Shown: positions 1 to 22,447, counted from the stretch's first letter. The stretch: DNA of 64,000 nucleotides from an uncultured delta proteobacterium (GCA_963752595.1 CAVVYZ010000020.1:128001-192000); one strand, 5' to 3'. The notes: generated by a model from the sequence alone, not told the origin. Numbers and translations: made by a program.

Positions 1-444
1 GCTTACATTTATATTTCTAAGGTCCTCGTTTGTAGGGCCTAATGTATTGGCAAAAAAGAGGTATGCTCCAACCTTTAATCCAAATATTGCACCAAAGAAT
101 CCTGAAGCAATGATCAATAAAACTATGTTCACTATTTTCAATATGGAATTCTTACCTGTGTTAACGTCAGTCTTATTTTTCAGACGGATGAGCTTCGTAT
201 CAATCACAAAATCAATAACAACAGAGAAAGCTATTACCCCAAATATTGCCAACCAGTTGCTTTTCAACAACACTATAATTAAACCAGCTGATAAGCCAAT
301 TAGTAACGATGTAGCACCTAATAGGAAGGTATAATTTATTACTGATATATTACTACAAGACTTACACGAGTGTTCCCCATAGACACTTTTAAAGTATACC
401 TTCCAGTAAGGAATTGAATCTTCATTGCAGTTTGGACATCTCAT
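1..444 (-). CDS. Cassette 5 (3' end truncated by the window): zinc-ribbon membrane protein
   Basis: Read by hand; not in the ORF track. ATG at 444 follows a GGAAGGA RBS. Reads MRCPNCNEDSIPYWKVYFKSVYGEHSCKSC followed by hydrophobic helices, and stays open to position 1. Confidence 0.8.
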   Translation of the reverse strand, partial: MRCPNCNEDSIPYWKVYFKSVYGEHSCKSCSNISVINYTFLLGATSLLIGLSAGLIIVLLKSNWLAIFGVIAFSVVIDFVIDTKLIRLKNKTDVNTGKNSILKIVNIVLLIIASGFFGAIFGLKVGAYLFFANTLGPTNEDLRNINVS

Positions 445-466
445 AAATTTTCCTTCCTATCTTTGA

Positions 467-523
467 GCATAACGTGCCGATCACTGGCGGCTGAAAGCCG
501 TCCGGTGGATTGGCGGGTTATGC
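467..523 (-). other. attC site (cassette 4)
   Basis: GCATAAC(467-473)...GTTATGC(517-523), 57 bp, imperfect hairpin with unpaired G and T. Confidence 0.9.
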
Positions 524-559
524 TGTGTTATAGCGTATTGAAATTGAATAATAAAAAAG

Positions 560-1147
560 TTAATCTCGATATAAAAAGAGTGCTACACGCCTGCATCTTA
601 CCTGTATTCCATTGATCTCGCTCCGTATTCTCACTCCCAGAGTTATTTCTTCATCAGGGAATTGGCTGAAAATATTGATTGTATCAACCCAAACAACTGT
701 TGTGCTATTTGTTTGAACAGTACTTTGTGAGATAGGAACATCATTAGTAAGATCATAAAGTTCAACAAAACAATTATTGGCTCCGTTAGCAGATTCAATT
801 GCCGCTGAAAAAACTATTCTATTAACGCCAATATAATTCTCAATATTGAATTTAGTTAGTAAACATGCATTTGGAGACATGACCCATGATGTATTAGTAG
901 CAACCAGGAAATCTTGAAAGTCGTATTCAAATCTAATCTGCTTATCGTATACCCCAACACCAGGGAGTCCTTGAGGTCCTTGTGCACCTGTTGACCCCTG
1001 TTCTCCCTGCTGGCCTTGGGATCCTTGTTCTCCTTGTGGGCCTTGATCTCCATCAGAACCACCAACGCAACCATTTAGCATAAGTAATAAGAAAATTATA
1101 AAAAACATTATAGATGTAGACTTATAAGACATAAAAGAATTGCACAT
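560..1147 (-). CDS. Cassette 4: putative lipoprotein with collagen-like G-X-Y repeat
   Basis: Hydrophobic signal ending LMLNG-C, then 12 G-X-Y triplets (GSD GDQ GPQ GEQ ... GLP GVG), then a beta-rich C-terminal domain. Confidence 0.8.
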   Translation of the reverse strand: MCNSFMSYKSTSIMFFIIFLLLMLNGCVGGSDGDQGPQGEQGSQGQQGEQGSTGAQGPQGLPGVGVYDKQIRFEYDFQDFLVATNTSWVMSPNACLLTKFNIENYIGVNRIVFSAAIESANGANNCFVELYDLTNDVPISQSTVQTNSTTVVWVDTINIFSQFPDEEITLGVRIRSEINGIQVRCRRVALFLYRD

Positions 1148-1178
1148 AGTATTTTGAGCTCCTCTCTTTATTATTAAG

Positions 1179-1238
1179 GCATAACGATGGCATCAGCGGC
1201 GCGGCTCCGCCGCGTCCGCCTGCATGCGATGGTTATGC
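1179..1238 (-). other. attC site (cassette 3)
   Basis: GCATAAC(1179-1185)...GTTATGC(1232-1238), 60 bp GC-rich hairpin. Confidence 0.93.
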
Positions 1239-1253
1239 GATCCTCGATTCATA

Positions 1254-1970
1254 TTAATAAGGACAACTTTCAATAATAAGATGAACCCATTTATAGTATG
1301 GTTCATCATCAGTTATTCTAATTTTGTAGGAGTTTTTCAACCAACGCTGAAGAAAATCTTCTGCTGACATTGGTGCATCCGGAGATGATTTGAACATATC
1401 AGGATCTATACTCTCCATTTGCTTCTTTGTTGGACGTAAATAGATTACTCCCTCATAAGGGGGGTATAAAATATTTTGTATATCTGGGAGGTCATTCTTA
1501 GTTTTTTCACATGAAAACCATTCAAGCTCAGATGGAAACATATTCAGGAATGGATCAGTGGCAGAAATAAATAGGTCAACAACATCAACAAAATCCTCAG
1601 CTTCAGCTCTTTCTGGAACAATATATTCGTGCTCGACAAGATTCCTCATGCTATTCATTCTGCGCAATATTTGGGGAGTTGTTAGACTACACTTCTTGCA
1701 GAACTCAAGCTTTTCAGGAAAATGTTGTCTTTCTTTTTTGGGTAATGATTTGATTCCGAAAGCATTTACAAGAAGCTCAACTTGATAGTGCAAGGCACGT
1801 TTAGCATTTGTTAAAGCATTTATATTCGAACGAGCATCATTGCTTGCTTCCAAATCAGTCTGTGAAAATTGAAGGTATCCACGGGGATCGATTTCCTGGG
1901 ATGATTCTATACATTCAAATCCACTTACGTGCGGTTTATTAAATTTATAATGTTCGGGTAGAATTATCAT
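1254..1970 (-). CDS. Cassette 3: HEPN-like domain protein
   Basis: Helical N-terminal region with an Rx4H motif (RNLVEH). The ORF fills the space between two attC sites. Confidence 0.7.
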   Translation of the reverse strand: MIILPEHYKFNKPHVSGFECIESSQEIDPRGYLQFSQTDLEASNDARSNINALTNAKRALHYQVELLVNAFGIKSLPKKERQHFPEKLEFCKKCSLTTPQILRRMNSMRNLVEHEYIVPERAEAEDFVDVVDLFISATDPFLNMFPSELEWFSCEKTKNDLPDIQNILYPPYEGVIYLRPTKKQMESIDPDMFKSSPDAPMSAEDFLQRWLKNSYKIRITDDEPYYKWVHLIIESCPY

Positions 1971-1982
1971 CAGAACTTATCC

Positions 1983-2046
1983 GCATAACGGCCAGCATCA
2001 GCGGCGCGGGCGGCAGCCCGCGTCCGTCTGCATGCTGTGGTTAGAC
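1983..2046 (-). other. attC site (cassette 2)
   Basis: GCATAAC(1983-1989)...GTTAGAC(2040-2046). The cassette 2 stop codon lies inside the inverse core (GTC-TAA-C). Confidence 0.93.
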
Positions 2047-2796
2047 AGTTCTATTTTCACTAAGCAATCCAAGAAAATCGTATGAGAAGGTTTGTATATT
2101 TTTAAGAATTTGATCTGCATATTTGTCTATAGCCATCGAGCCAATTACTGGAGGGTTTATCTTCACGCATGTTAAACTATTCCCTTGCTCCATGAAGTGA
2201 AGCTGAAACATTAGTTGATTCATCCCGATCTCAGGATGAATGAGTTGATCTCGTGCAAAAATTGCTTGGTCAAGCCACAATGCCTTGTGTTCCATAATCA
2301 ATGCTTTGATTCTAGCGGCAGTTTCATTTCTCTTTTTCGAGGCATTATTTGTAAGAGCGTTGAGGACTTTACCACCATAAATATTCTGTGAACGATGGAA
2401 TCCATCAATAGATGCAGCAACGACTTTTTCACTTGAGAGTAGTTGAACGAGAAGATCCAAGAGGGATTTAACTCCAGAAAAGAATGCTTCAATACGAAGG
2501 TGCATGTCGGGAAGTTGGCCATATATATCTAATTCTTGAAGATCAAACTTCCGCGTTTGCCATTGCTGATAAATTGTCTCAATGTGTTTTTGGCAAAGGT
2601 GTTCTGCATCACCGCAAATGTTCTTTATCTGCCCAGCACAATGATTCAATACCGAAAACTCGGTCCAGCATGATTGAACGATACCTTTACTTACACCTGA
2701 CCATAGATTGGGATTGAAAATTTTAGCACCAGCAACAGCCGACTTATCTGCACAGATAACCGGTATGCGGTTGTTTTGTTTTTTATTTTTCGTCAT
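2041..2796 (-). CDS. Cassette 2: HEPN-like protein (Cthe_2314-like pattern)
   Basis: IEAFFSGVKSLLDLL helix plus an Rx4H motif (RDQLIH). Confidence 0.7.
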   Translation of the reverse strand: MTKNKKQNNRIPVICADKSAVAGAKIFNPNLWSGVSKGIVQSCWTEFSVLNHCAGQIKNICGDAEHLCQKHIETIYQQWQTRKFDLQELDIYGQLPDMHLRIEAFFSGVKSLLDLLVQLLSSEKVVAASIDGFHRSQNIYGGKVLNALTNNASKKRNETAARIKALIMEHKALWLDQAIFARDQLIHPEIGMNQLMFQLHFMEQGNSLTCVKINPPVIGSMAIDKYADQILKNIQTFSYDFLGLLSENRTV

Positions 2797-2816
2797 ATTT
2801 TATAATTATTTAGGAT

Positions 2817-2881
2817 GTCTAACGCCCAGCATCACCGGCGCGGGCGGCACGCCCGCGTCCGTGTGCATGCTGTTGTTAGCT
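2817..2881 (-). other. attC site (cassette 1)
   Basis: GTCTAAC(2817-2823)...GTTAGCT(2875-2881), 65 bp hairpin nearly identical to 1983-2046. Confidence 0.93.
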
Positions 2882-2889
2882 TCTTTTGA

Positions 2890-3255
2890 TTATTGTTTTA
2901 TGTCCTCATTAACAATTTGGGGAGCCATCACTAATCTTTGATCTTTTTTCTTCTCCTTGATGAGAAATATCAAACCAACTGGAAAATAAACTCCCATGGA
3001 CCACATTCCTGGTGCGTTAAAGGGCACTGAAATAAGAACTGCTGGTATTTTAATACCTATGCCCAGTGACAATGCACCAGTTGCCCAGATTATGTGTAAC
3101 CCCACAGGGAATCCTAAGAAAGATGAAATGATATACAACCATTTCTTGTTTAGATCTTTTTTCTTAAAGAAGTATATGGCACACCAGAGTTGAACAACAG
3201 TACAAAGGACAAATAACGAAGCAATAACTATGTGATAGATTGATATTTCATTCAT
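2890..3255 (-). CDS. Cassette 1: small multi-pass membrane protein
   Basis: AGGAGT RBS lies 9 nt upstream of the ATG at 3255. About 4 hydrophobic segments. Confidence 0.75.
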   Translation of the reverse strand: MNEISIYHIVIASLFVLCTVVQLWCAIYFFKKKDLNKKWLYIISSFLGFPVGLHIIWATGALSLGIGIKIPAVLISVPFNAPGMWSMGVYFPVGLIFLIKEKKKDQRLVMAPQIVNEDIKQ

Positions 3256-3275
3256 GAACAACATACTCCTCTTGA

Positions 3276-3340
3276 AGCTAACCATTTACTATACTGCAAA
3301 ATTGAAGCAAAAGTCGCTATATAGCGACTTTTACGGCTCC
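3276..3340 (-). other. attI site (core GTTAGCT at 3282-3276; upstream limit approximate)
   Basis: GTTAGCT is the exact complement of the cassette 1 inverse core AGCTAAC, with no attC hairpin upstream of it. Confidence 0.8.
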
Positions 3341-3394
3341 ATCGGGTAAATCTAATATGATATGGTATCTTCCTTTTCCAATGTTTGAATTTAT

Positions 3395-3403
3395 ATTATA
3401 CCA
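3395..3403 (-). promoter_or_regulatory. Candidate cassette promoter Pc (extended -10)
   Basis: TGG-TATAAT on the minus strand, pointing toward attI. Confidence 0.5.
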
Positions 3404-3405
3404 CC

Positions 3406-4817
3406 GAGCCAATTGCAAAACACACAGATTGCGATAATATTTCAATAAGCAAGATAACTGATTGAAATAATGAAGAGAAAGCTCTATTCTTTTTGTGTCG
3501 AGCAAAAAGAAAGGAGTAACGATGAGCAATCTCTTCGATATTTGGCATACCACACAAGCGAGACTTTTTCCATGGTTGGAAGAGCGACTTGATCCATTGA
3601 GTGAGAAGGAGCAGCAGTTTGTGAAGGTTGTTTCCCTGATGGACTTGCCCAGGCATATGGGTGAATACCGGTGGATAGGGTTAGGCAGGAGACGCGAAGA
3701 CAGGACAGCGATCGCGAAAGCGTTTGTAGCCAAGGCGGTATACAATTTCGAGACGACGAAAGTGCTCATAGAATACCTGATGGGCAGCAAGAACCTGAGG
3801 CGATTATGCGGATGGGAGACGAGAGGGGATATACCATCGGGATCGACCTTTTCACGGGCGTTTGCTGAATATGCTCGGGGGTGCCTGCCCCAGAAGGTTC
3901 ACGAGGCCATGGTGAAGGCGCACTGTGGTGAGAAAATTGCCGGGCATGTGAGCAGGGATGCGACGGCCATTGAGGCGAGGGAGAAGGCGGTGAAGAAAGA
4001 GGCTGAGGAAACCACTCTGTTGCCGAAAAGGAAGCGTGGCCGCCCGAAGCGAGGAGAAGAAGCTGTTCCCAAGCCTCCGAAAAGGCTGGATCTTCAGGTT
4101 GGCCGTAGCCTTGAGGAGAATCTGTCGGATCTGCCGTATCATTGTGACGTGGGGACCAAGAAGGACAGCAAGGGATACAAGATGACGTGGCGGGGCTACA
4201 AGCTGCATATTGACTGTATCGATGGGGACATACCGGTGAGTGCATTGTTGACCTCTGCATCATTGCATGATTCCCAGGCGGCCATACCGCTTGCCCAGAT
4301 GACGTCGAAGCGGGTGACGAGCCTGTATGATCTCATGGACGCCGCCTATGATGCGCCGCAGATCAAGGAGTTCAGTGAGGGACTCTCTCATGTTCCGATC
4401 ATTGATCCCAATCCAAGGCGTGGAGAGAAGATACCTCTTGATCCTGCCAGGAAGGCACGGTTTGCGCAGAGGAGCAGCGTTGAGCGGGTGAATTCGTATC
4501 TGAAAGATAACCATGGAGGGAGTCATATAAGGGTTAAAGGAGCGTCCAAGGTCATGGCGCATCTTATGTTCGGGCTCATTGTCATTACTGCGAACCAACT
4601 CTTCCAGATGCTTTGTTGAAGGATACATGCGATAAAATCAGATATATTCGCACCGCCTATTGGAGTAGGAGCTGGATAGCTGCGCTCGGAAATCGACATA
4701 AGGGTGATGTTGAGCATAGAATCACCGTGTAAATGGCGCGTTATGATCTTTATCTTAGATGTAGACAACTGTATTATGCTTCAATAATTATACGGCAGAG
4801 AGTTTTGCAATTGGCTC
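3406..4817 (+). mobile_element. Insertion sequence (DDE, IS1182/IS5-like), 1412 bp
   Basis: Perfect 16-bp terminal IRs GAGCCAATTGCAAAAC (3406-3421 and 4802-4817), flanked by a CACC direct repeat (3402-3405, 4818-4821). Confidence 0.92.
3522..4619 (+). CDS. DDE transposase
   Basis: DATAIE, GYKLH, DAAYD and RSSVERVNS motifs. An AGGAG RBS precedes the ATG at 3522. Confidence 0.92.
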   Translation: MSNLFDIWHTTQARLFPWLEERLDPLSEKEQQFVKVVSLMDLPRHMGEYRWIGLGRRREDRTAIAKAFVAKAVYNFETTKVLIEYLMGSKNLRRLCGWETRGDIPSGSTFSRAFAEYARGCLPQKVHEAMVKAHCGEKIAGHVSRDATAIEAREKAVKKEAEETTLLPKRKRGRPKRGEEAVPKPPKRLDLQVGRSLEENLSDLPYHCDVGTKKDSKGYKMTWRGYKLHIDCIDGDIPVSALLTSASLHDSQAAIPLAQMTSKRVTSLYDLMDAAYDAPQIKEFSEGLSHVPIIDPNPRRGEKIPLDPARKARFAQRSSVERVNSYLKDNHGGSHIRVKGASKVMAHLMFGLIVITANQLFQMLC

Positions 4818-4876
4818 CACCATTAATATTTTTCGGAATACTTGAATGCATTTGTTTTGTTGGGAGGTCCTATCCT

Positions 4877-5851
4877 ATGAAGCCGAAGAATACCCAGGAG
4901 CAAAAGCTCTTTGACGTTGTTTGCGATATCCTCCGCAGAAAGCATTATTCTCTCAAGACAGAGAAATCGTATATATCCTGGATGAGAAGATTCATCAGTT
5001 ATCATAAAATGCGCCATCCCAGGGATATGGGCAAACACGAAATCGAATCGTTCCTCACACATCCGGCTGTTGATCATAAGGTCGCTTCATCAACGCAGAA
5101 TCAGGCATTCAATGCCATACTGTTTCTCTACCGTGATGTGCTGGAAATCAACATCTCGGATGAACTCAATGCCGTGCGGGCAAAAAAGCAAGCCCGCATA
5201 CCCGTAGTTTTGAGCCATGAGGAAGCCTTAAAGGTGATCGACTCCATTACAGGTGTGCATCAGCTCATGGCAAAGCTTCTCTATGGCTGCGGCCTTCGAC
5301 TTACGGAATGCCTCAGATTGAGGGTCAAAGACATCGATTTTGAAATGAACTGCATCGTTATCTTTGATGGCAAAGGGAAAAAAGACCGGGTTGTCATGCT
5401 TCCCAAGAAAGTTGCATTCATCCTTAAAGAGCAGATACAGCATGTACATTCGATCCATAGATATGATCTTGCAAGGGGTTATGGCGCGGTCCATCTTCCA
5501 TTCGCCTTGGAGAAGAAATACCCGAATTCACCAAAACAGCTTGGTTGGCAGTACGTCTTCCCTTCTGATGAAGTATCCCGGGACCCGAGATCCGGAAAAA
5601 CCATGCGGCACCACGTGAGCCCCACGACCCTGCAGAGGGCGGTTAAAAAAGCAGTTGCAATAGCAGGTGTTTACAAGCATGTGGGGTGCCATACCTTCAG
5701 GCACAGTTTCGCCACCCGGCTGCTTGAGAATGGGTACGACATAAGAACCGTACAAGAGCTCCTCGGTCATAAGGACATTAAGACAACCATGATCTACACC
5801 CACGTCATGAACAAAGGGGCTATGGCCGTGAAGAGTCCGCTGGATGTGTAG
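4877..5851 (+). CDS. intI: Integron integrase
   Basis: [22 protein letters not shown]...TTMIYTHV, plus the integron-specific segment [12 protein letters not shown]...WQYVFPS. GGAGG RBS before the ATG at 4877. Confidence 0.97.
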
Positions 5852-6197
5852 GGCCGCAGGCTCATTGCAACTGAGGTTCGGCAGGGCTGATCAAGGAAGA
5901 GCTCAAGAGAAGACCGGAGAAGGAAGATGGATTCGTAAAGACGGGCAGACTCCGTCCGTGCGGGGTGAAAAGGGATAAAGCTCTGGCCTCCTCTTAGCAT
6001 CATGGCTTCAACAAAAGTTCGGCGCAATAATCAAGCTGCTCGTGCATTAAACATTTAAACTAAACAATGGCATAATTTCAACAGGAAATCCATTTGATTA
6101 TAAAGATATATAAAGGAAACCAGCCGGCTCAACCGACAGAGCGAAACACCGTATGCAACGCTTGGCAGAGGAAGGCAAAGGGTGAGAGTGACCTTTT

Positions 6198-7026
6198 TTA
6201 GCTTCTCAGCCGAGGATCTATTGCGTCGCGGATGCCTTCGCCCAGGAGGTTGTAGCCCAGCACGGTGATGAGGATGGCCATGCCCGGGTAGAACGAGAGC
6301 CACCAGGCGACGCCGAGAGTGCTCTGGCCCTGGGTGAGGATGTTGCCCCAGCTTGGGGTGGGCGGCTGGACGCCGATTCCCAGGAAGGACAGCGCCGATT
6401 CCACGAGCACGGCCGATGCGACTGCCCAGGGTGGCCGACACGAGCACCGGCGCCATGGCATTGGGCAGGATGTGCAGGAAGATGATGCGTGCGCCGCCCG
6501 CGCCCATGGCCTTTTCCGCCAGCACGAAATCACGCTCTTTGAGGCTTAGGAATTCTGCGCGCACGAGCCGCGTGATGCCCATCCACGAGGTGAGCCCGAT
6601 GACCGCCATGATATTGAAGATGGAGGGCTCCAGGAAGGCGATCACGGCCAGGATCAGGAAGAACGATGGGAAGCAGAGCATGATGTCCACGAAGCGCATG
6701 ATGATGATGTCGATCCAGCCGCCGTAGTAGCCGGAGACGGCTCCCAGGAGGATGCCGATCAGCGTGGCGATGCCCACGGCCACGAACCCTACCTTCAGCG
6801 AGATGCCTGCGCCGTAGAGCATGCGGGTGAACACGTCCCTGCCCAGGTCGTCTGTGCCGAAGAGATGTCTGGCTGTAGGTGCGGCGAGGATGTTGTCCAC
6901 GTCGATGGTGCTCGGGTCGTACGGCGCGATATAGGGCGTCAGGATGGAGAGGATAAAGAAGGCGAGCACGATAGCGAGCCCGACCACGGCGAGTTTGTCA
7001 TGTAAGAAACGCTTCCGGAATCCCAT
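6198..7026 (-). CDS. Peptide ABC transporter permease (OppC/DppC), one apparent frameshift
   Basis: HLFGTDDLGRDVF and HILPN; C-terminus ESALSFLGIG...DAIDPR is in a second frame. Confidence 0.9.
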
Positions 7027-7027
7027 G

Positions 7028-8003
7028 TCAGCTCGCCCGTATCCTCGGGTCGGCCACGCTGTAGGCAATGTCCGCGATGAGGTTGCCCAGCAGCGTCAGT
7101 ACGGCGCCGATGGTGAGGCTTCCCATGATCAGGTTGTAGTCGCGCATCATGATTGCCTCATAGAACAGCTTGCCCAGGCCCGGTATGGAGAAGATGCTCT
7201 CGAAGATGACGCTGCCGCCGATGAGCCCGGGCACGGAGAGGCCCAGGATCGTGATGACCGGAAGCAGGGCGTTGCGCATGGCGTGCTTGTAGATCACGGT
7301 CCGCTCGGGCAGGCCCTTGGCGCGGGCGGTCAGGATGTAGTCCTGCCGGATGATCTCGAGCATGCTCGAGCGCATGTAGCGGCTCATGCCCGCCAGCGAC
7401 CCGAAGGCGGAGATGACCACGGGCAGGATGAGGTGCCGCGACGAGGTCCCAGACCTGGCCGAAGGCACTCAGGTGCTCGTATCCCGAGGAATGGATGCCC
7501 GAGATGGGAAGCCACCCGAGCCGCACCCCCAGGAGATCCATGCAGATGAGCGCGAGCCAGAAGCTCGGCACGGAAAAGCCGATGAACACGAACACCGTGA
7601 TGGCCCGGTCGAGGATGCTGCCCCGGCTGACGGCCGAGATCACGCCCAGCGGGATGGCCACCAGGAAGATGAGGATCATGGAGGAGATGTTGATGGAGAT
7701 GGTGATGGGCAGCCGCTCCTTGATCTTGTCCCACACGGGCCGGGCGTCCGACGAGATGGAGTTGCCGAAATCCAGCCTTGCCAGGCTCTTCATCCAGAGG
7801 AAGTACTGGACCGTGAGCGGCTTGTCCAGGCCGTAGTGGTGCTTGAGCTGCTCGATGGCCTGGGGCGTGATGTTCGGGTTGAGCTCGGCCTGCATGCCCG
7901 TGGGCTCGCCGGGCGCCAGGTGGATGACCGCGAAGCACACGATGGTGATGCCGATGAACGTGGGGATGAGGATGGCGAGGCGTTTCAGCAGATACTTCAG
8001 CAT
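7028..8003 (-). CDS. Peptide ABC transporter permease (OppB/DppB), one apparent frameshift
   Basis: [22 protein letters not shown] and ADPRIR motifs across two frames. Confidence 0.9.
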
Positions 8004-16843: not shown

Positions 16844-17967
16844 GATAATAAATTCTCCGCGATGAATCTTGATTTTGTATCGAGTTCTATCAAATCAGCC
16901 GGTGACTCTACCTTTGAACCGGCAAGTTTGTCCATAGTTTTCGATGCGATGTCGATTATCTGATCGAATCTGATGCGGCCTTTCAGGAAACCTTCGACGG
17001 CAGTCTCATCCGCGGCGTTCATGATGCACGGCAGTACCTTGGGATCTTCCATGGCAGACCGGGCAAGCTTGAGTGCGGGGAATTTCTCCTCATCAGGTTT
17101 GAAGAACTCGAGTTTTACCATATCTTTCATTATCAACGGCTTCAGACCGAGGCTCATTCTCCGCGGCCAGGAAAGCGCATAGGCAATGGGGATGCGCATA
17201 TCGGGAATCCCCATCTGTGCCTTGATGCTCATGTCCCGGAACTCAACCATGGAATGAATGATGCTCTGGGGATGGACCACGACCTCGATCAGGGGCAAGG
17301 CCACGCCGAAGAGCCAGTGGGCCTCAATGATTTCGAGTCCTTTGTTCATCATGGTTGCCGAATCGATGGTGATTCTAGATCCCATGGACCAGGTGGGATG
17401 GTTCAAAGCCTCCCCAGGCGTGATATCGGCAAAGGTCTCTTTCGGCCTCGTGCGGAAAGGGCCTCCCGAGGCAGTGAGGATGATGCGGCTGATCTCTTTG
17501 CTGTCTTCGCCTGCAAGGCACTGGAAAACCGCCGAGTGCTCCGAATCGACCGGGATGATCCGGGCACCGGAGGCGGCAGCCTCTTCGCTCATGAACGCCC
17601 CGCCGATCACCAGGGATTCCTTGTTGGCCAGCGCCAGGACGGAACCCTGACGGATCGCTTCCAGCGAGGGAAGAAATCCGGCGGCGCCCGAGATCCCGTT
17701 CACCACGAAATCGGGCCTGGCCGCTGTGATGAGTTCCGAGGCCGCGTTCTTTCCCCACAGGACATCACTGCCTTTGAGATCTAAGGGAGGTTCGCAGCCC
17801 AGGGCGAGGAGCTTCACGCCGAATTCCGCCGCCTGATCTTTAAGCTCTTTTGCATTCGTGCCCGCAGATAATCCGACGACAGCGAATTCCCCGGGGTTCC
17901 GTGCGAGGACATCAAGGGTAGAGCGGCCGATGGAGCCTGTTGATCCGAGAACAACGACCGTCTTCAT
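16840..17967 (-). CDS. dxr: 1-deoxy-D-xylulose 5-phosphate reductoisomerase
   Basis: LGSTGSIG, LANKES, PVDSEHSA and NKGLE motifs. Confidence 0.97.
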   Translation of the reverse strand: MKTVVVLGSTGSIGRSTLDVLARNPGEFAVVGLSAGTNAKELKDQAAEFGVKLLALGCEPPLDLKGSDVLWGKNAASELITAARPDFVVNGISGAAGFLPSLEAIRQGSVLALANKESLVIGGAFMSEEAAASGARIIPVDSEHSAVFQCLAGEDSKEISRIILTASGGPFRTRPKETFADITPGEALNHPTWSMGSRITIDSATMMNKGLEIIEAHWLFGVALPLIEVVVHPQSIIHSMVEFRDMSIKAQMGIPDMRIPIAYALSWPRRMSLGLKPLIMKDMVKLEFFKPDEEKFPALKLARSAMEDPKVLPCIMNAADETAVEGFLKGRIRFDQIIDIASKTMDKLAGSKVESPADLIELDTKSRFIAENLLS

Positions 17968-18777
17968 TTACCGGATTACCTGGATGGCGAAATAGAGGAA
18001 GATACCCACCGGGATGATTCCGTCCATGCGGTCGAGCATGCCGCCATGGCCCGGGATCAGATTTCCCATGTCCTTGACCTGGAACTGTCTCTTGTATAGC
18101 GATGCGCTCAAGTCACCCGAGAGGTCCAGCAGGCTGATGGCTCCGGCCATGATCGGGACGGCCCACAGCGGGCAGGGCAGTTCGAGGGGCAGGAAACGGT
18201 TGTAGAGAATATAGAACAGGCTTCCCGCTAGGATGCTCGTTGCCATGCCTCCGAAGAGGCCTTCGACGGTTTTCTTGGGGCTTAAATTCGGCACGAGGGC
18301 ATGCCTGCCGAAATTCTTCCCGGTATAATATGCGCCGGTATCCGCCCCGAAGGTGCATATGAGCCCGAAAATCATCCAGAACCTGCCGTCGATGTCGTTC
18401 CGCAGCAGGACCCAGAAGCTCAAAAGGGCCAGGGGATAGATGAGCCCGGAAATGGCGAGATTGATGTCCATGGCCGAGGCCTTTCCCTTCTCGAAAAGGA
18501 AGAGCCCCGCTGCCATCATGATGAGGCTCAATCCGCAGATCAGGAAGAACGAGAGGGCGAGATTATTCATATATATAGTATAGAGGTATGGCAATGAGCC
18601 GACCATGCCTATCCGGCTCAAGAGTTTCGCGTTTTCCCCGAGCCCGACGCGATACAGCTCGTAGAGGCAGGTCGGAAGGACGATGAGTGCAATGATGAAT
18701 AAAGCTGATGGCGGCCCTAAAACTGCAGGTACGGCAAAGATGATGAGAAGGATAGCGGCGCCGAAGATACGCATCAT
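17968..18777 (-). CDS. cdsA: Phosphatidate cytidylyltransferase
   Basis: SPKKTVEG and KDMGNLIPGHGGMLDRMD motifs. Confidence 0.95.
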   Translation of the reverse strand: MMRIFGAAILLIIFAVPAVLGPPSALFIIALIVLPTCLYELYRVGLGENAKLLSRIGMVGSLPYLYTIYMNNLALSFFLICGLSLIMMAAGLFLFEKGKASAMDINLAISGLIYPLALLSFWVLLRNDIDGRFWMIFGLICTFGADTGAYYTGKNFGRHALVPNLSPKKTVEGLFGGMATSILAGSLFYILYNRFLPLELPCPLWAVPIMAGAISLLDLSGDLSASLYKRQFQVKDMGNLIPGHGGMLDRMDGIIPVGIFLYFAIQVIR

Positions 18778-21890: not shown

Positions 21891-22447
21891 ATGGAAGAGA
21901 ATATGGAAGAACACTGGATCACAAGTGGTACGTAGTTCATACCCACTCGAACTACGAGCAGAAGGCGAAGAAGTCTCTGGAAGAGAGGGTCAAGGCATTC
22001 CACGTCGAAGAGTTTTTCTCCGGCATACTCGTTCCCTCCGAGCAGGTCCCGAAGGCGCCCCAGGGCAAGAAGAAGTCGGCGAACAGGAGGACTTTCCCCG
22101 GATACATACTCGTACGGATGGTTCTCACCGACCAGACCTGGCACGTGGTGATGAATACGCCCAAGATAACCGGATTCGTCGGCGGCAGGACTTCCCCGTC
22201 CACCATCCCCGATTCTGAAGTGGAAACGCTTACGGGCCCAGCTCGAAGAAGGGGTGGAAGCGTCATGTCTACAAGAGCGAGTTCAATGTCGGTGATGAGG
22301 TGCTCGTCAACGAGGGACCATTCCAGAATTTCAGCGGCGTTGTGGACGATACCAAGCCTGACAAGGGCAAGGTCACGGGTGCTCGTGAGCATCTTCGGCA
22401 GATCCACACCGGTTGAGTTGAATTTTGATCAGATAACCAAGAAATAG
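21891..22447 (+). CDS. nusG: Transcription factor NusG (frameshifted)
   Basis: KWYVVHT, FPGYILV, NTPKITGFVG and IFGRSTPVELNF fragments. Confidence 0.9.

What the first reader, a model, noticed from the sequence alone, without database searches (positions are those of the whole stretch)
1..5851. Intact integron with five functionally uncharacterised cassettes and perfectly matched core sites
Seen in sequence: each complete cassette begins with a core heptamer that is the exact complement of its own inverse core (GTTAGCT/AGCTAAC, GTTAGAC/GTCTAAC, GTTATGC/GCATAAC twice). This is the footprint of circular-cassette integration, and it also locates attI at 3276-3282. No cassette resembles an antibiotic-resistance gene; all are AT-rich relative to the flanking core genes. 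Inference: a sedentary chromosomal integron in an anaerobic deltaproteobacterium carrying defence- or surface-related cargo.
Basis: partly seen in the sequence, partly recalled or inferred. Interest (0 to 1): 0.72.

Follow-up and report, generated by a model that had tools for sequence, protein, structure and literature searches.

The report
Integron with antiterminator-type signal behind integrase
This is a real chromosomal gene-capture system (integron), interrupted by an insertion sequence, and behind its integrase gene it carries a conserved DNA signal, shared by most integrases of this bacterial family and by the leaders of its polysaccharide operons, that likely recruits an RfaH-like elongation factor so that RNA polymerase would read far into the cassette array, a control that my searches did not find reported for integrons.

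Summary
The integron is real: IntI scores 457 bits on TIGR02249 (cut-off 265), catalytic residues are intact, and all four core/inverse-core pairs match. It is not intact. A 1,412-bp IS separates attI from intI, and an IS-free allele exists in another metagenome. The array runs about 13 kb further left (14 attC hits, two split by IS110-family elements). Cassette 3 is predicted to have a HEPN fold; cassette 2 probably does.

The new part lies past intI: a 26-bp element at 5944-5969, reading TTCACC-N6-GGACGGAGTCTG toward the array. It follows intI in 25 of 31 family loci (chance 1.3% per stretch), heads integrase-less attI arrays, and is missing from 0-integron orthologous sites (0 of 20 at oppC). 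It lies downstream of promoters and heads polysaccharide operons. Its 12-mer has ops-like pause flanks (7 of 12 identical) and a GNA-loop hairpin like Bacteroides opsX. The genome encodes a stand-alone RfaH-like NusG paralogue.

Best reading (0.55): a paralogue-recruitment site on a transcript running antisense through intI into the cassettes. There are no RNA data, and CsrA-type or operator readings stay open.

The parts
1..444 (-). Cassette 5 ORF (238 aa in full, the rest lies left of the window): N-terminal CxxC zinc ribbon and hydrophobic segments. Its attC is split by an IS110-family element.
   Evidence: (TIGR04104, weak)
467..523 (-). attC of cassette 4 (57 bp), ending in the core of cassette 5
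   Evidence: z -6.5
560..1147 (-). Cassette 4 ORF, 195 aa: lipobox-like LNGC (read by eye) and a Gly-X-Y collagen repeat; likely a surface lipoprotein
   Evidence: PF01391, E 9e-5, below cut-off
1179..1238 (-). attC of cassette 3 (60 bp)
   Evidence: z -6.3
1254..1970 (-). Cassette 3 ORF, 238 aa: predicted N-terminal HEPN domain with invariant R109..H114, plus a C-terminal domain without a match; likely an RNase of defence type
   Evidence: Z 13.7, rmsd 2.5, 113 aligned to 2hsb
1983..2046 (-). attC of cassette 2 (64 bp)
   Evidence: z -4.7
2041..2796 (-). Cassette 2 ORF, 251 aa: helical bundle with invariant R182..H187; probably HEPN-like
   Evidence: HEPN_Apea weak in 13 of 102; Cthe2314 lead, 12% of one cluster; HEPN Z 8.5-8.9, below generic bundles at Z 10.2
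2817..2881 (-). attC of cassette 1 (65 bp)
   Evidence: z -6.3
2890..3255 (-). Cassette 1 ORF: small membrane protein (121 aa from the start behind the ribosome-binding site, read by eye; 131 aa from the ATG at 3285); no family match
3276..3298 (-). attI: TGCAGTATAGTAA box and core GTTAGCT. The box recurs at the integrase-less arrays on C16 and C13.
3309..3332 (.). Perfect 24-bp palindrome just upstream of attI, terminator-like on the cassette strand, kept with compensatory changes in relatives
3385..3403 (.). Overlapping candidate promoters read by eye: an extended -10 (TGGTATAAT, minus strand, 3395-3403) toward the cassettes, and a -35 (TTGAAT, 3385-3390, plus strand) of a P-intI whose -10 (4824-4829) is separated from it by the IS
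   Evidence: sequence; untested
3406..4817 (+). IS of IS1182/IS5-like type: 16-bp terminal inverted repeats, CACC duplication at 3402-3405 and 4818-4821, transposase 3522-4619; 9 related copies in the genome, 2 of them over 99% identical
   Evidence: IS-free allele in run X4
4877..5851 (+). intI, 324 aa, the only complete integron integrase found in the assembly
5944..5969 (-). Conserved element TTCACC-N6-GGACGGAGTCTG-CC; the 12-mer is at 5946-5957. Proposed ops-like pause and recruitment site.
5987..6027 (-). Conserved AG-rich leader tract (5987-5994) and a candidate promoter TTGCGC-N17-CATGAT (6027-5999; read by eye, not found by the consensus scans)

Best explanation
This is a genus-conserved chromosomal integron, split from its attI by a recent IS, whose platform includes a conserved element past the 3' end of intI that likely acts as an ops-like pause and recruitment site for the family's stand-alone RfaH-like NusG paralogue, so that a transcript would run antisense through intI and deep into the cassette array. 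Step 1 (shown): IntI, attI and the attC cassettes are all present. Step 2 (shown by comparison): the element travels with the platform to several chromosomal sites and is kept when intI is lost. Step 3 (inferred): a promoter beyond it fires toward the array. Step 4 (inferred): RNA polymerase pauses at the T11-G12 step, the non-template strand folds into an AC-GGA-GT mini-hairpin, and the paralogue loads. Step 5 (inferred from RfaH biology): the modified polymerase resists Rho across about 1.2 kb of untranslated antisense intI (2.7 kb with the IS) and across AT-rich cassettes, expressing defence and surface genes and probably damping intI by convergent transcription.
For: (1) A weight matrix built only from 10 copies with no integrase nearby scores over 10 bits within 9-172 bp of the intI 3' end, in one orientation, in 25 of 31 family intI loci (IntI 46-100% identical, 6 genera). 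The opposite strand scores over 10 in 1 of 31, and chance is 1.3% per 600 bp. (2) The element travels with the platform. At oppC it is in all 10 same-genus loci fetched (one as an N5 variant seen only by pattern) and in 0 of 20 loci of other genera. At altronate dehydratase it is in 1 of 9, the one with an array. At the ABC-ATPase site it is in 3 of 12, all three with attI and cassettes. (3) It is kept 100-250 bp before integrase-less attI arrays: G000 C26 and C13, G004 twice, G009, G003. (4) TTGAC[AT] lies within 150 bp upstream on the same strand in 31 of 61 copies against 2 of 61 on the other strand. Sigma-70 matches of 9/12 or better: 19, against 7 on the other strand and 4.1 in shuffles. 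The -35 box lies 42-124 nt away, so the element is not part of the promoter. (5) It heads polysaccharide operons: 11 of 14 orthologous exopolysaccharide-operon leaders and glycosyltransferase clusters on G000 C7 and G007 C2. These are the typical targets of NusG paralogues (PMC7593976, passages). (6) The 12-mer matches ops12 GGCGGTAGCGTG at 7 of 12 positions, including G1, G2, T11 and G12; the TG at 11-12 induces the pause (PMC5995543, passages). TG or CG stands there in 62 of 65 copies. Its C-GGA-G loop has the architecture of the Bacteroides opsX hairpin YGCGNAGCR, which also uses upstream duplex DNA (PMC11685472, passages). Positions 2 and 10 pair in 57 of 65 copies, 8 of them by a compensatory change. 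(7) A NusG paralogue stands at a conserved non-target locus in all 8 genomes examined; best model RfaH 95.5 bits against NusG 51. 45 of 52 family genomes have two PF02357 matches. Rho is present.
Against: No transcript, pause or binding data exist here. E. coli ops G4 and T6, which RfaH needs or contacts (PMC5995543), are not kept; canonical ops occurs once in G000 against 5 times in the reversed control. The paralogue is below the RfaH, UpxY and LoaP cut-offs. A paralogue-type match is also present in genera with no exact element (g3, g4, g5, g8, g9, g12, g13), so co-occurrence does not single it out. Six of 31 intI loci lack the element (four in g12, two in g10; two had under 300 bp of flank), as do 3 of 14 exopolysaccharide leaders and the C16 array. 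Some copies head genes that are neither foreign nor polysaccharide (YhbY, HD-domain, CheD, V-ATPase subunit). The 12-mer folds slightly better as RNA than as DNA (-1.5 against -0.2 kcal/mol), carries ACGGA, and CsrA is encoded. The window's own distal promoter is weak and was missed by both scans, while a closer extended -10 lies beside attI. Copies come from related genomes and are not independent, and positions 3-9 are invariant by construction of the search pattern.
Confidence: 0.55

Rival explanations
1. The element acts as RNA. The distal promoter makes a leader or small antisense RNA whose GGA hairpin and AG-rich tract are bound by CsrA or another RNA-binding protein. It tunes translation or stability, or silences intI, and the cassettes are read from an ordinary Pc beside attI.
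For: ACGGA sits in a hairpin loop and a second GGA tract lies upstream (the CsrA ANGGA preference is recalled). The 4-bp stem covaries beyond what a paused bubble would expose. CsrA is present. An extended -10 lies at 3395-3403 (sequence).
Against: At complete integrons no start codon lies near the element on that strand, so there is no translation to control. The fixed TTCACC-N6 spacing and the Y11-G12 step are not explained. RNAalifold finds no structure beyond the 4-bp stem in 31 leaders. No Rfam family reached its threshold.
Confidence: 0.2
2. The element is a double-stranded operator or alternative-sigma promoter of a family-specific regulon (polysaccharide, stress, integron), with no role in elongation.
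For: It is bipartite with a fixed, variable 6-bp spacer, is family-restricted, and lies upstream of regulated operons, one of which starts with partner-switching genes.
Against: It is asymmetric and strictly oriented, lies 42-124 nt downstream of sigma-70 -35 boxes, and has a different upstream promoter-like motif at the exopolysaccharide operon. It ends in a pause-type YG and shows stem covariation.
Confidence: 0.13
3. The element is a recombination or landing site by which the intI-attI platform moves between chromosomal loci (dif/pdif-like: two arms around a 6-bp spacer).
For: Platforms with it sit at four or more different anchors within the genus, and G004 carries the second attI type at the oppC site where others carry the first.
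Against: It is absent from empty orthologous sites, so it is not a pre-existing target. No second copy marks the far end of the window's array. The spacer differs between copies in one genome. It heads ordinary polysaccharide operons.
Confidence: 0.07

Closest known systems
Sedentary chromosomal integrons with defence cassettes (V. cholerae SCI; 10.1101/2024.07.02.601686, passages seen)
   Same: IntI, attI and attC cassettes at a genus-conserved locus; toxin-antitoxin and HEPN-like cargo; no resistance genes found.
   Different: There, cassettes are expressed from a Pc near attI along a falling gradient, and distal ones are poorly expressed. Here a conserved promoter-leader-12-mer module lies beyond the intI 3' end, an IS splits attI from intI, and several integrase-less attI arrays share the genome.
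E. coli RfaH and ops (PMC5995543, 10.1101/324400, PMC7593976, PMC7819879; passages seen)
   Same: A 12-nt leader element with G1, G2, G5, A7, G8, T11 and G12; a small non-template hairpin; a handful of copies per genome before long polysaccharide or foreign operons; a stand-alone NusG paralogue.
   Different: C3, G4 and T6 are replaced; there is an extra TTCACC-N6 arm; the paralogue is below the RfaH cut-off; integron targets appear in none of these passages.
Bacteroides UpxY and opsX (PMC11685472, passages seen)
   Same: A multipartite site with an upstream-duplex part and a GNA-loop non-template hairpin (YGCGNAGCR there, GAC-GGA-GTC here), in polysaccharide leaders.
   Different: UpxY genes sit first in their own target operons with UpxZ. 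This paralogue is single and unlinked, between a polysaccharide-deacetylase-like gene and an hflX-like gene (neighbours named by eye). No pause hairpin was found upstream.
CALIN elements (PMC4889954, passages seen)
   Same: attC clusters without a neighbouring intI in a genome that has an intI elsewhere.
   Different: Four of this genome's clusters keep a recognisable attI and three keep the distal element, which points to loss of intI from whole platforms. That paper found intI pseudogenes near only 15 of 279 CALINs.
IS1111-attC group and group IIC-attC introns (PMC11187229, passages; PMC3001079, listing and abstract start only)
   Same: IS110-family transposase with subterminal inverted repeats and a long downstream non-coding region, inserted a few bases inside attC in two places; group II intron pieces in attC sites on C2 and C16.
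   Different: Nothing distinctive was found; seekRNA and intron subclass were not examined.

Membership tests
Integron (chromosomal) | Integron-type tyrosine recombinase, distinct from XerC/D | tested here: met
   TIGR02249 457 bits over cut-off 265; XerC 148 and XerD 141 under their cut-offs; R-K-H-R-H-Y intact
Integron (chromosomal) | attI at the 5' side of intI, cassettes pointing away | tested here: met
   Core at 3276-3282; the same arrangement without the IS in relatives and in run X4
Integron (chromosomal) | attC sites with R''/R' cores and bottom-strand hairpins | tested here: met
   4 of 4 window sites, z -4.7 to -6.5
Integron (chromosomal) | Acceptance by the IntegronFinder attC covariance model | not testable with these tools
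   The model is not available; my own nhmmer profile was used instead
Integron (chromosomal) | Sedentary: same locus in relatives | tested here: met
   Near-complete intI beside oppC in 7 of 10 same-genus loci, a C-terminal piece at a contig end in 1, integrase-less platforms in 2; no intI there in 20 loci of other genera
Integron (chromosomal) | attI x attC recombination by this IntI | not testable with these tools
   Needs an assay; matched cores are indirect evidence of past activity
RfaH/ops | Protein scores as RfaH | tested here: not met
   TIGR01955 95.5 bits under cut-off 144.5, although it is the best of five models
RfaH/ops | ops sequence GGCGGTAGnnTG | tested here: not met
   7 of 12 identical; C3, G4 and T6 differ
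RfaH/ops | Pause-type flanks (G at 1-2, YG at 11-12) | tested here: met
   TG or CG in 62 of 65 copies with these positions left free in the pattern; G at position 1 in 54 of 65
RfaH/ops | Oriented site in promoter-proximal leaders of long operons | tested here: met
   -35 box upstream in 31 of 61 against 2 of 61; 11 of 14 exopolysaccharide leaders
RfaH/ops | Non-template-strand hairpin | tested here: inconclusive
   Stem with covariation, but DNA versus RNA cannot be told apart
RfaH/ops | Recruitment at the site and antitermination | not testable with these tools
   Needs in vitro transcription or a reporter
RfaH/ops | Autoinhibited, fold-switching C-terminal domain | not tested
UpxY/opsX | Paralogue encoded at the head of its target operon | tested here: not met
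   Conserved non-target locus, with no element immediately upstream, in 8 of 8 genomes; UpxY 62 bits under cut-off 100
HEPN nuclease (cassette 3) | HEPN fold with RxxxxH | tested here: met
   Top rows are HEPN or HEPN-like structures, best Z 13.7; R109 and H114 invariant in 11 of 11
HEPN nuclease (cassette 2) | HEPN fold with RxxxxH | tested here: inconclusive
   R182 and H187 invariant in 102 of 102; HEPN Z 8.5-8.9 but generic helical bundles score higher; no Foldseek match
IS1111-attC group | IS110-family transposase, subterminal inverted repeats, inserted inside attC | tested here: met
   NF033542 183 bits over cut-off 140; both copies begin 2 bases after the inverse core; phylogeny not tested

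The most novel reading that the evidence does not exclude
Integrons of this deltaproteobacterial family are wired into an RfaH-type antitermination regulon. A promoter and ops-like site behind intI launch a termination-resistant polymerase antisense through the integrase gene and along the whole cassette array. This would flatten the usual position gradient, switch on distal defence cassettes together with surface polysaccharide operons, keep integrase-less arrays expressed, and define a new paralogue-site pair with a GNA-loop hairpin.
Probability: 0.4. Interest if true: 0.86.

Novelty: new variant of a known kind. Interest (0 to 1): 0.68.

Why it matters
The standard integron model holds that only cassettes near attI are expressed and the rest wait silently until shuffled. 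A platform-borne antitermination signal would give a second way to reach distal cassettes, without recombination, under the same switch as surface polysaccharides. It would explain why arrays that lost intI keep this one short sequence. It also offers a candidate recruitment site for a NusG paralogue outside the few known ones (RfaH ops, UpxY opsX, LoaP hairpin), testable in a simple reporter. As an integron alone the locus is ordinary. Its HEPN-like cassettes are modest candidates for new anti-phage genes.

Tried and rejected
PADLOC scan of 20 cassette proteins, including the four complete window cassettes: no hit for the window cassettes. Rfam on the window and six loci: only group II intron pieces passed, nothing for the element. 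Foldseek gave nothing for cassette 2. The Atlas gave only unnamed clusters and weak HEPN leads. Sequencing runs: no RNA holder listed; the contigs mostly cover the IS and give no information on expression. My first idea that the window's attI has a spurious extra base was dropped: relatives show the same longer spacing. A chromosomal-target reading of the element was rejected by the empty-site test. A small-ORF reading was rejected by eye: third codon positions are fixed and N5 variants break the frame. Outside the family the relaxed pattern is at background in a phylum sample of 301 genomes. One family match lies inside a coding region with no promoter and was treated as chance (L225); it is in the 61 copies but was left out of the 65. 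The 12-mer alone is not enriched in G000 (17 against 37 in the reversed control); with the CACC arm it is 5 against 1. The IntI tree holds family members only, with no Xer outgroup, and two rows were left out for length or stops; it shows the window's IntI as sister to its genus clade and nothing more. Literature: searches listed no paper linking integrons to RfaH, ops or antitermination, and a 2022 review of integron expression has 0 occurrences of antiterminat-, RfaH or NusG. Subscription papers and supplements were not seen. Earlier-findings look-ups gave nothing on this genome or idea; the two look-alikes were ordinary integrons in other genomes.


Full report
1. The observation. The window is G000:C20:128,001-192,000. 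The ORF at 4877-5851 is an integron integrase: TIGR02249 gives 457 bits against a cut-off of 265, XerC and XerD give 148 and 141, and all six catalytic residues are present. It is the only complete one in the assembly; a decayed remnant lies on C2. The attC sites fold into long hairpins (z -4.7 to -6.5). This matching is the expected product of cassette integration (own knowledge). It confirms the integron but is not news.

2. It is not intact and it is larger. A 1,412-bp IS with 16-bp inverted repeats and a CACC duplication sits at 3406-4817. A contig of run X4 joins 3400 to 4817 with no other differences, so the IS-free form exists. By eye, the IS separates a candidate P-intI -35 from its -10, but it also carries two sigma-70-like sites facing intI, so the effect on integrase expression is unknown. 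The array extends about 13 kb left of the window: 14 attC hits from my own profile, two split by identical IS110-family elements, one IS4-family element, and CcdA/B, YefM/YoeB and RelE/ParE-type cassettes.

3. Cargo. Cassette 3 is predicted to have a HEPN fold (Z 13.7) with an invariant RxxxxH. Cassette 2 has an invariant RxxxxH in 102 homologues but only middling HEPN matches. Cassette 4 looks like a collagen-repeat lipoprotein. Cassettes 1 and 5 are membrane proteins without a family over cut-off. PADLOC has no hit for the four complete window cassettes. The genome's other arrays carry a CBASS cyclase with a 2TM effector, two TIR proteins, a PifA-like NTPase fragment and a patatin. HEPN-like defence cassettes are known from Vibrio integrons (10.1101/2024.07.02.601686, passages).

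4. Other arrays. attC clusters lie on C2, C5, C13, C16 and C26. C16 starts with a near-copy of the window's attI and palindrome, C13 with a diverged copy, and C2 and C26 with a second attI type that G004 carries beside an intact, different intI. In the genus, intI stands beside oppC in 7 of 10 loci; two more keep attI and cassettes without intI. The integron is sedentary, with platform turnover.

5. The element. Comparing intI flanks showed a fixed-spacing sequence at 5944-5969. A matrix built only from 10 copies with no integrase nearby finds it 9-172 bp past intI, always in one orientation, in 25 of 31 family loci; chance is 1.3% per 600 bp, and 1 of 30 housekeeping nusG loci scores as high. 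It is absent from empty orthologous sites (0 of 20 at oppC, 0 of 8 at altronate dehydratase, 0 of 9 at the ABC-ATPase site) and present where a platform is, so it belongs to the platform. It is family-restricted: 11 of 24 family genomes against 0 of 16 in the sister family, and background level elsewhere in the phylum. Kin are not independent, so these tallies overstate significance.

6. What it looks like. Read toward the array it is TTCACC-N6-GGACGGAGTCTG, preceded by an AG-rich tract and often by a sigma-70 promoter: TTGAC[AT] upstream in 31 of 61 copies against 2 of 61 on the other strand. Away from integrons it heads an exopolysaccharide operon (11 of 14 orthologues), glycosyltransferase clusters and a probable DNA methyltransferase gene, but also a few ordinary genes. 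The 12-mer shares 7 of 12 positions with ops12, including the pause-inducing TG (PMC5995543, passages). That paper proposes that conserved flanks cause the pause while a variable centre is read by different proteins. The centre here can form AC-GGA-GT, with positions 2 and 10 covarying, the same GNA-loop design as Bacteroides opsX, which also uses upstream duplex DNA (PMC11685472, passages). The genome has a second NusG-family gene at a conserved, unlinked locus, closest to RfaH but under its cut-off. E. coli RfaH is likewise monocistronic and acts in trans (PMC7593976, passages). Rho is present, in three frameshifted pieces that probably reflect assembly errors.

7. Mechanism. Shown: integron parts, the IS, the element's conservation, orientation, platform linkage and operon context, and the paralogue's existence. 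Inferred: transcription from the distal promoter, pausing, hairpin formation, paralogue loading and read-through. In the IS-free form the element is 1,249 bp from the attI crossover, and 2,665 bp here; in integrase-less arrays it is 100-250 bp away. A long untranslated antisense stretch and a terminator-like palindrome just before attI are the kind of obstacles an antiterminator would address, although RfaH itself is weak against intrinsic terminators (PMC7819879, passages). I put this at 0.55 for a paralogue-recruitment site and 0.4 for it driving cassette expression through intI.

8. Against. There are no RNA data. The key RfaH-contact bases differ. The paralogue also occurs in genera without the element. 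Six intI loci, three operon leaders and the C16 array lack it. The window's own distal promoter is weak. CsrA is encoded and ACGGA sits in the loop. The rivals are an RNA-level element (0.2), an operator or alternative promoter (0.13) and a recombination site (0.07).

9. Novelty. The integron is a new member of a known kind, and its IS110-in-attC and intron-in-attC insertions are known kinds (PMC11187229, passages). The platform-borne ops-like element is the new part. Searches and the review showed no report of it or of antitermination in integrons; the library lacks most subscription papers, and no supplements were read. Verdict: new variant of a known kind, interest 0.68.

Noticed in passing
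L003:9,500-10,560 (G000:C16 ~17,500-18,560): An integrase-less array begins with a 67-bp, 97%-identical copy of the window's attI and palindrome, directly downstream of a type VI secretion gene cluster (named by eye); no distal element found.
   Followed up: partly
window 3309-3332; L010-L013, L014, L110, L157: attI regions across the family carry long palindromes just upstream of, or overlapping, the left box, with compensatory changes. Terminator, operator or folded attI is not decided.
   Followed up: partly
L007:7,722-9,603 (G000:C5): A two-gene CBASS-like system (cyclase and 2TM effector) lies between attC-like sites as one cassette, in an IS-flanked cluster.
   Followed up: partly
L004:8,036-9,274; L005:4,142-5,308; L006:2,362-4,458: TIR-domain cassettes head or sit in the C13 and C26 arrays; a frameshifted PifA-like KAP NTPase heads the C2 array.
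   Followed up: partly
L006:6,222-8,855; L003:6,070-6,690: A group II intron with a reverse transcriptase ORF is inserted in an attC on C2, next to an IS110-family element; an ORF-less intron remnant sits in an attC on C16.
   Followed up: partly
L050/L127 (G004 oppC site) and L018: G004 carries the second attI type, with only the first codons of its intI, at the oppC site where relatives carry the first type, and an intact second-type intI at the site where G000 has a remnant: platform replacement at a fixed locus.
   Followed up: partly
L238-L251, upstream of the exopolysaccharide operon: A second conserved motif (TCAAG...TTTTCCGAT...TACTGTG) is kept in all 14 leaders, including the three without the element; possibly an alternative-sigma promoter.
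   Followed up: no
window 6055-7549 and G000:C17:79,402-80,602: Frameshifts in the oligopeptide permease genes and in rho suggest indel errors in the assembly; single-base conclusions need care.
   Followed up: no
window ~21,920-22,230: The housekeeping nusG lies in this window (G000:C20:149,920-150,231).
   Followed up: no
L001:9,819-10,879: A cassette encodes an RsgA-like GTPase, in two ORFs.
   Followed up: no
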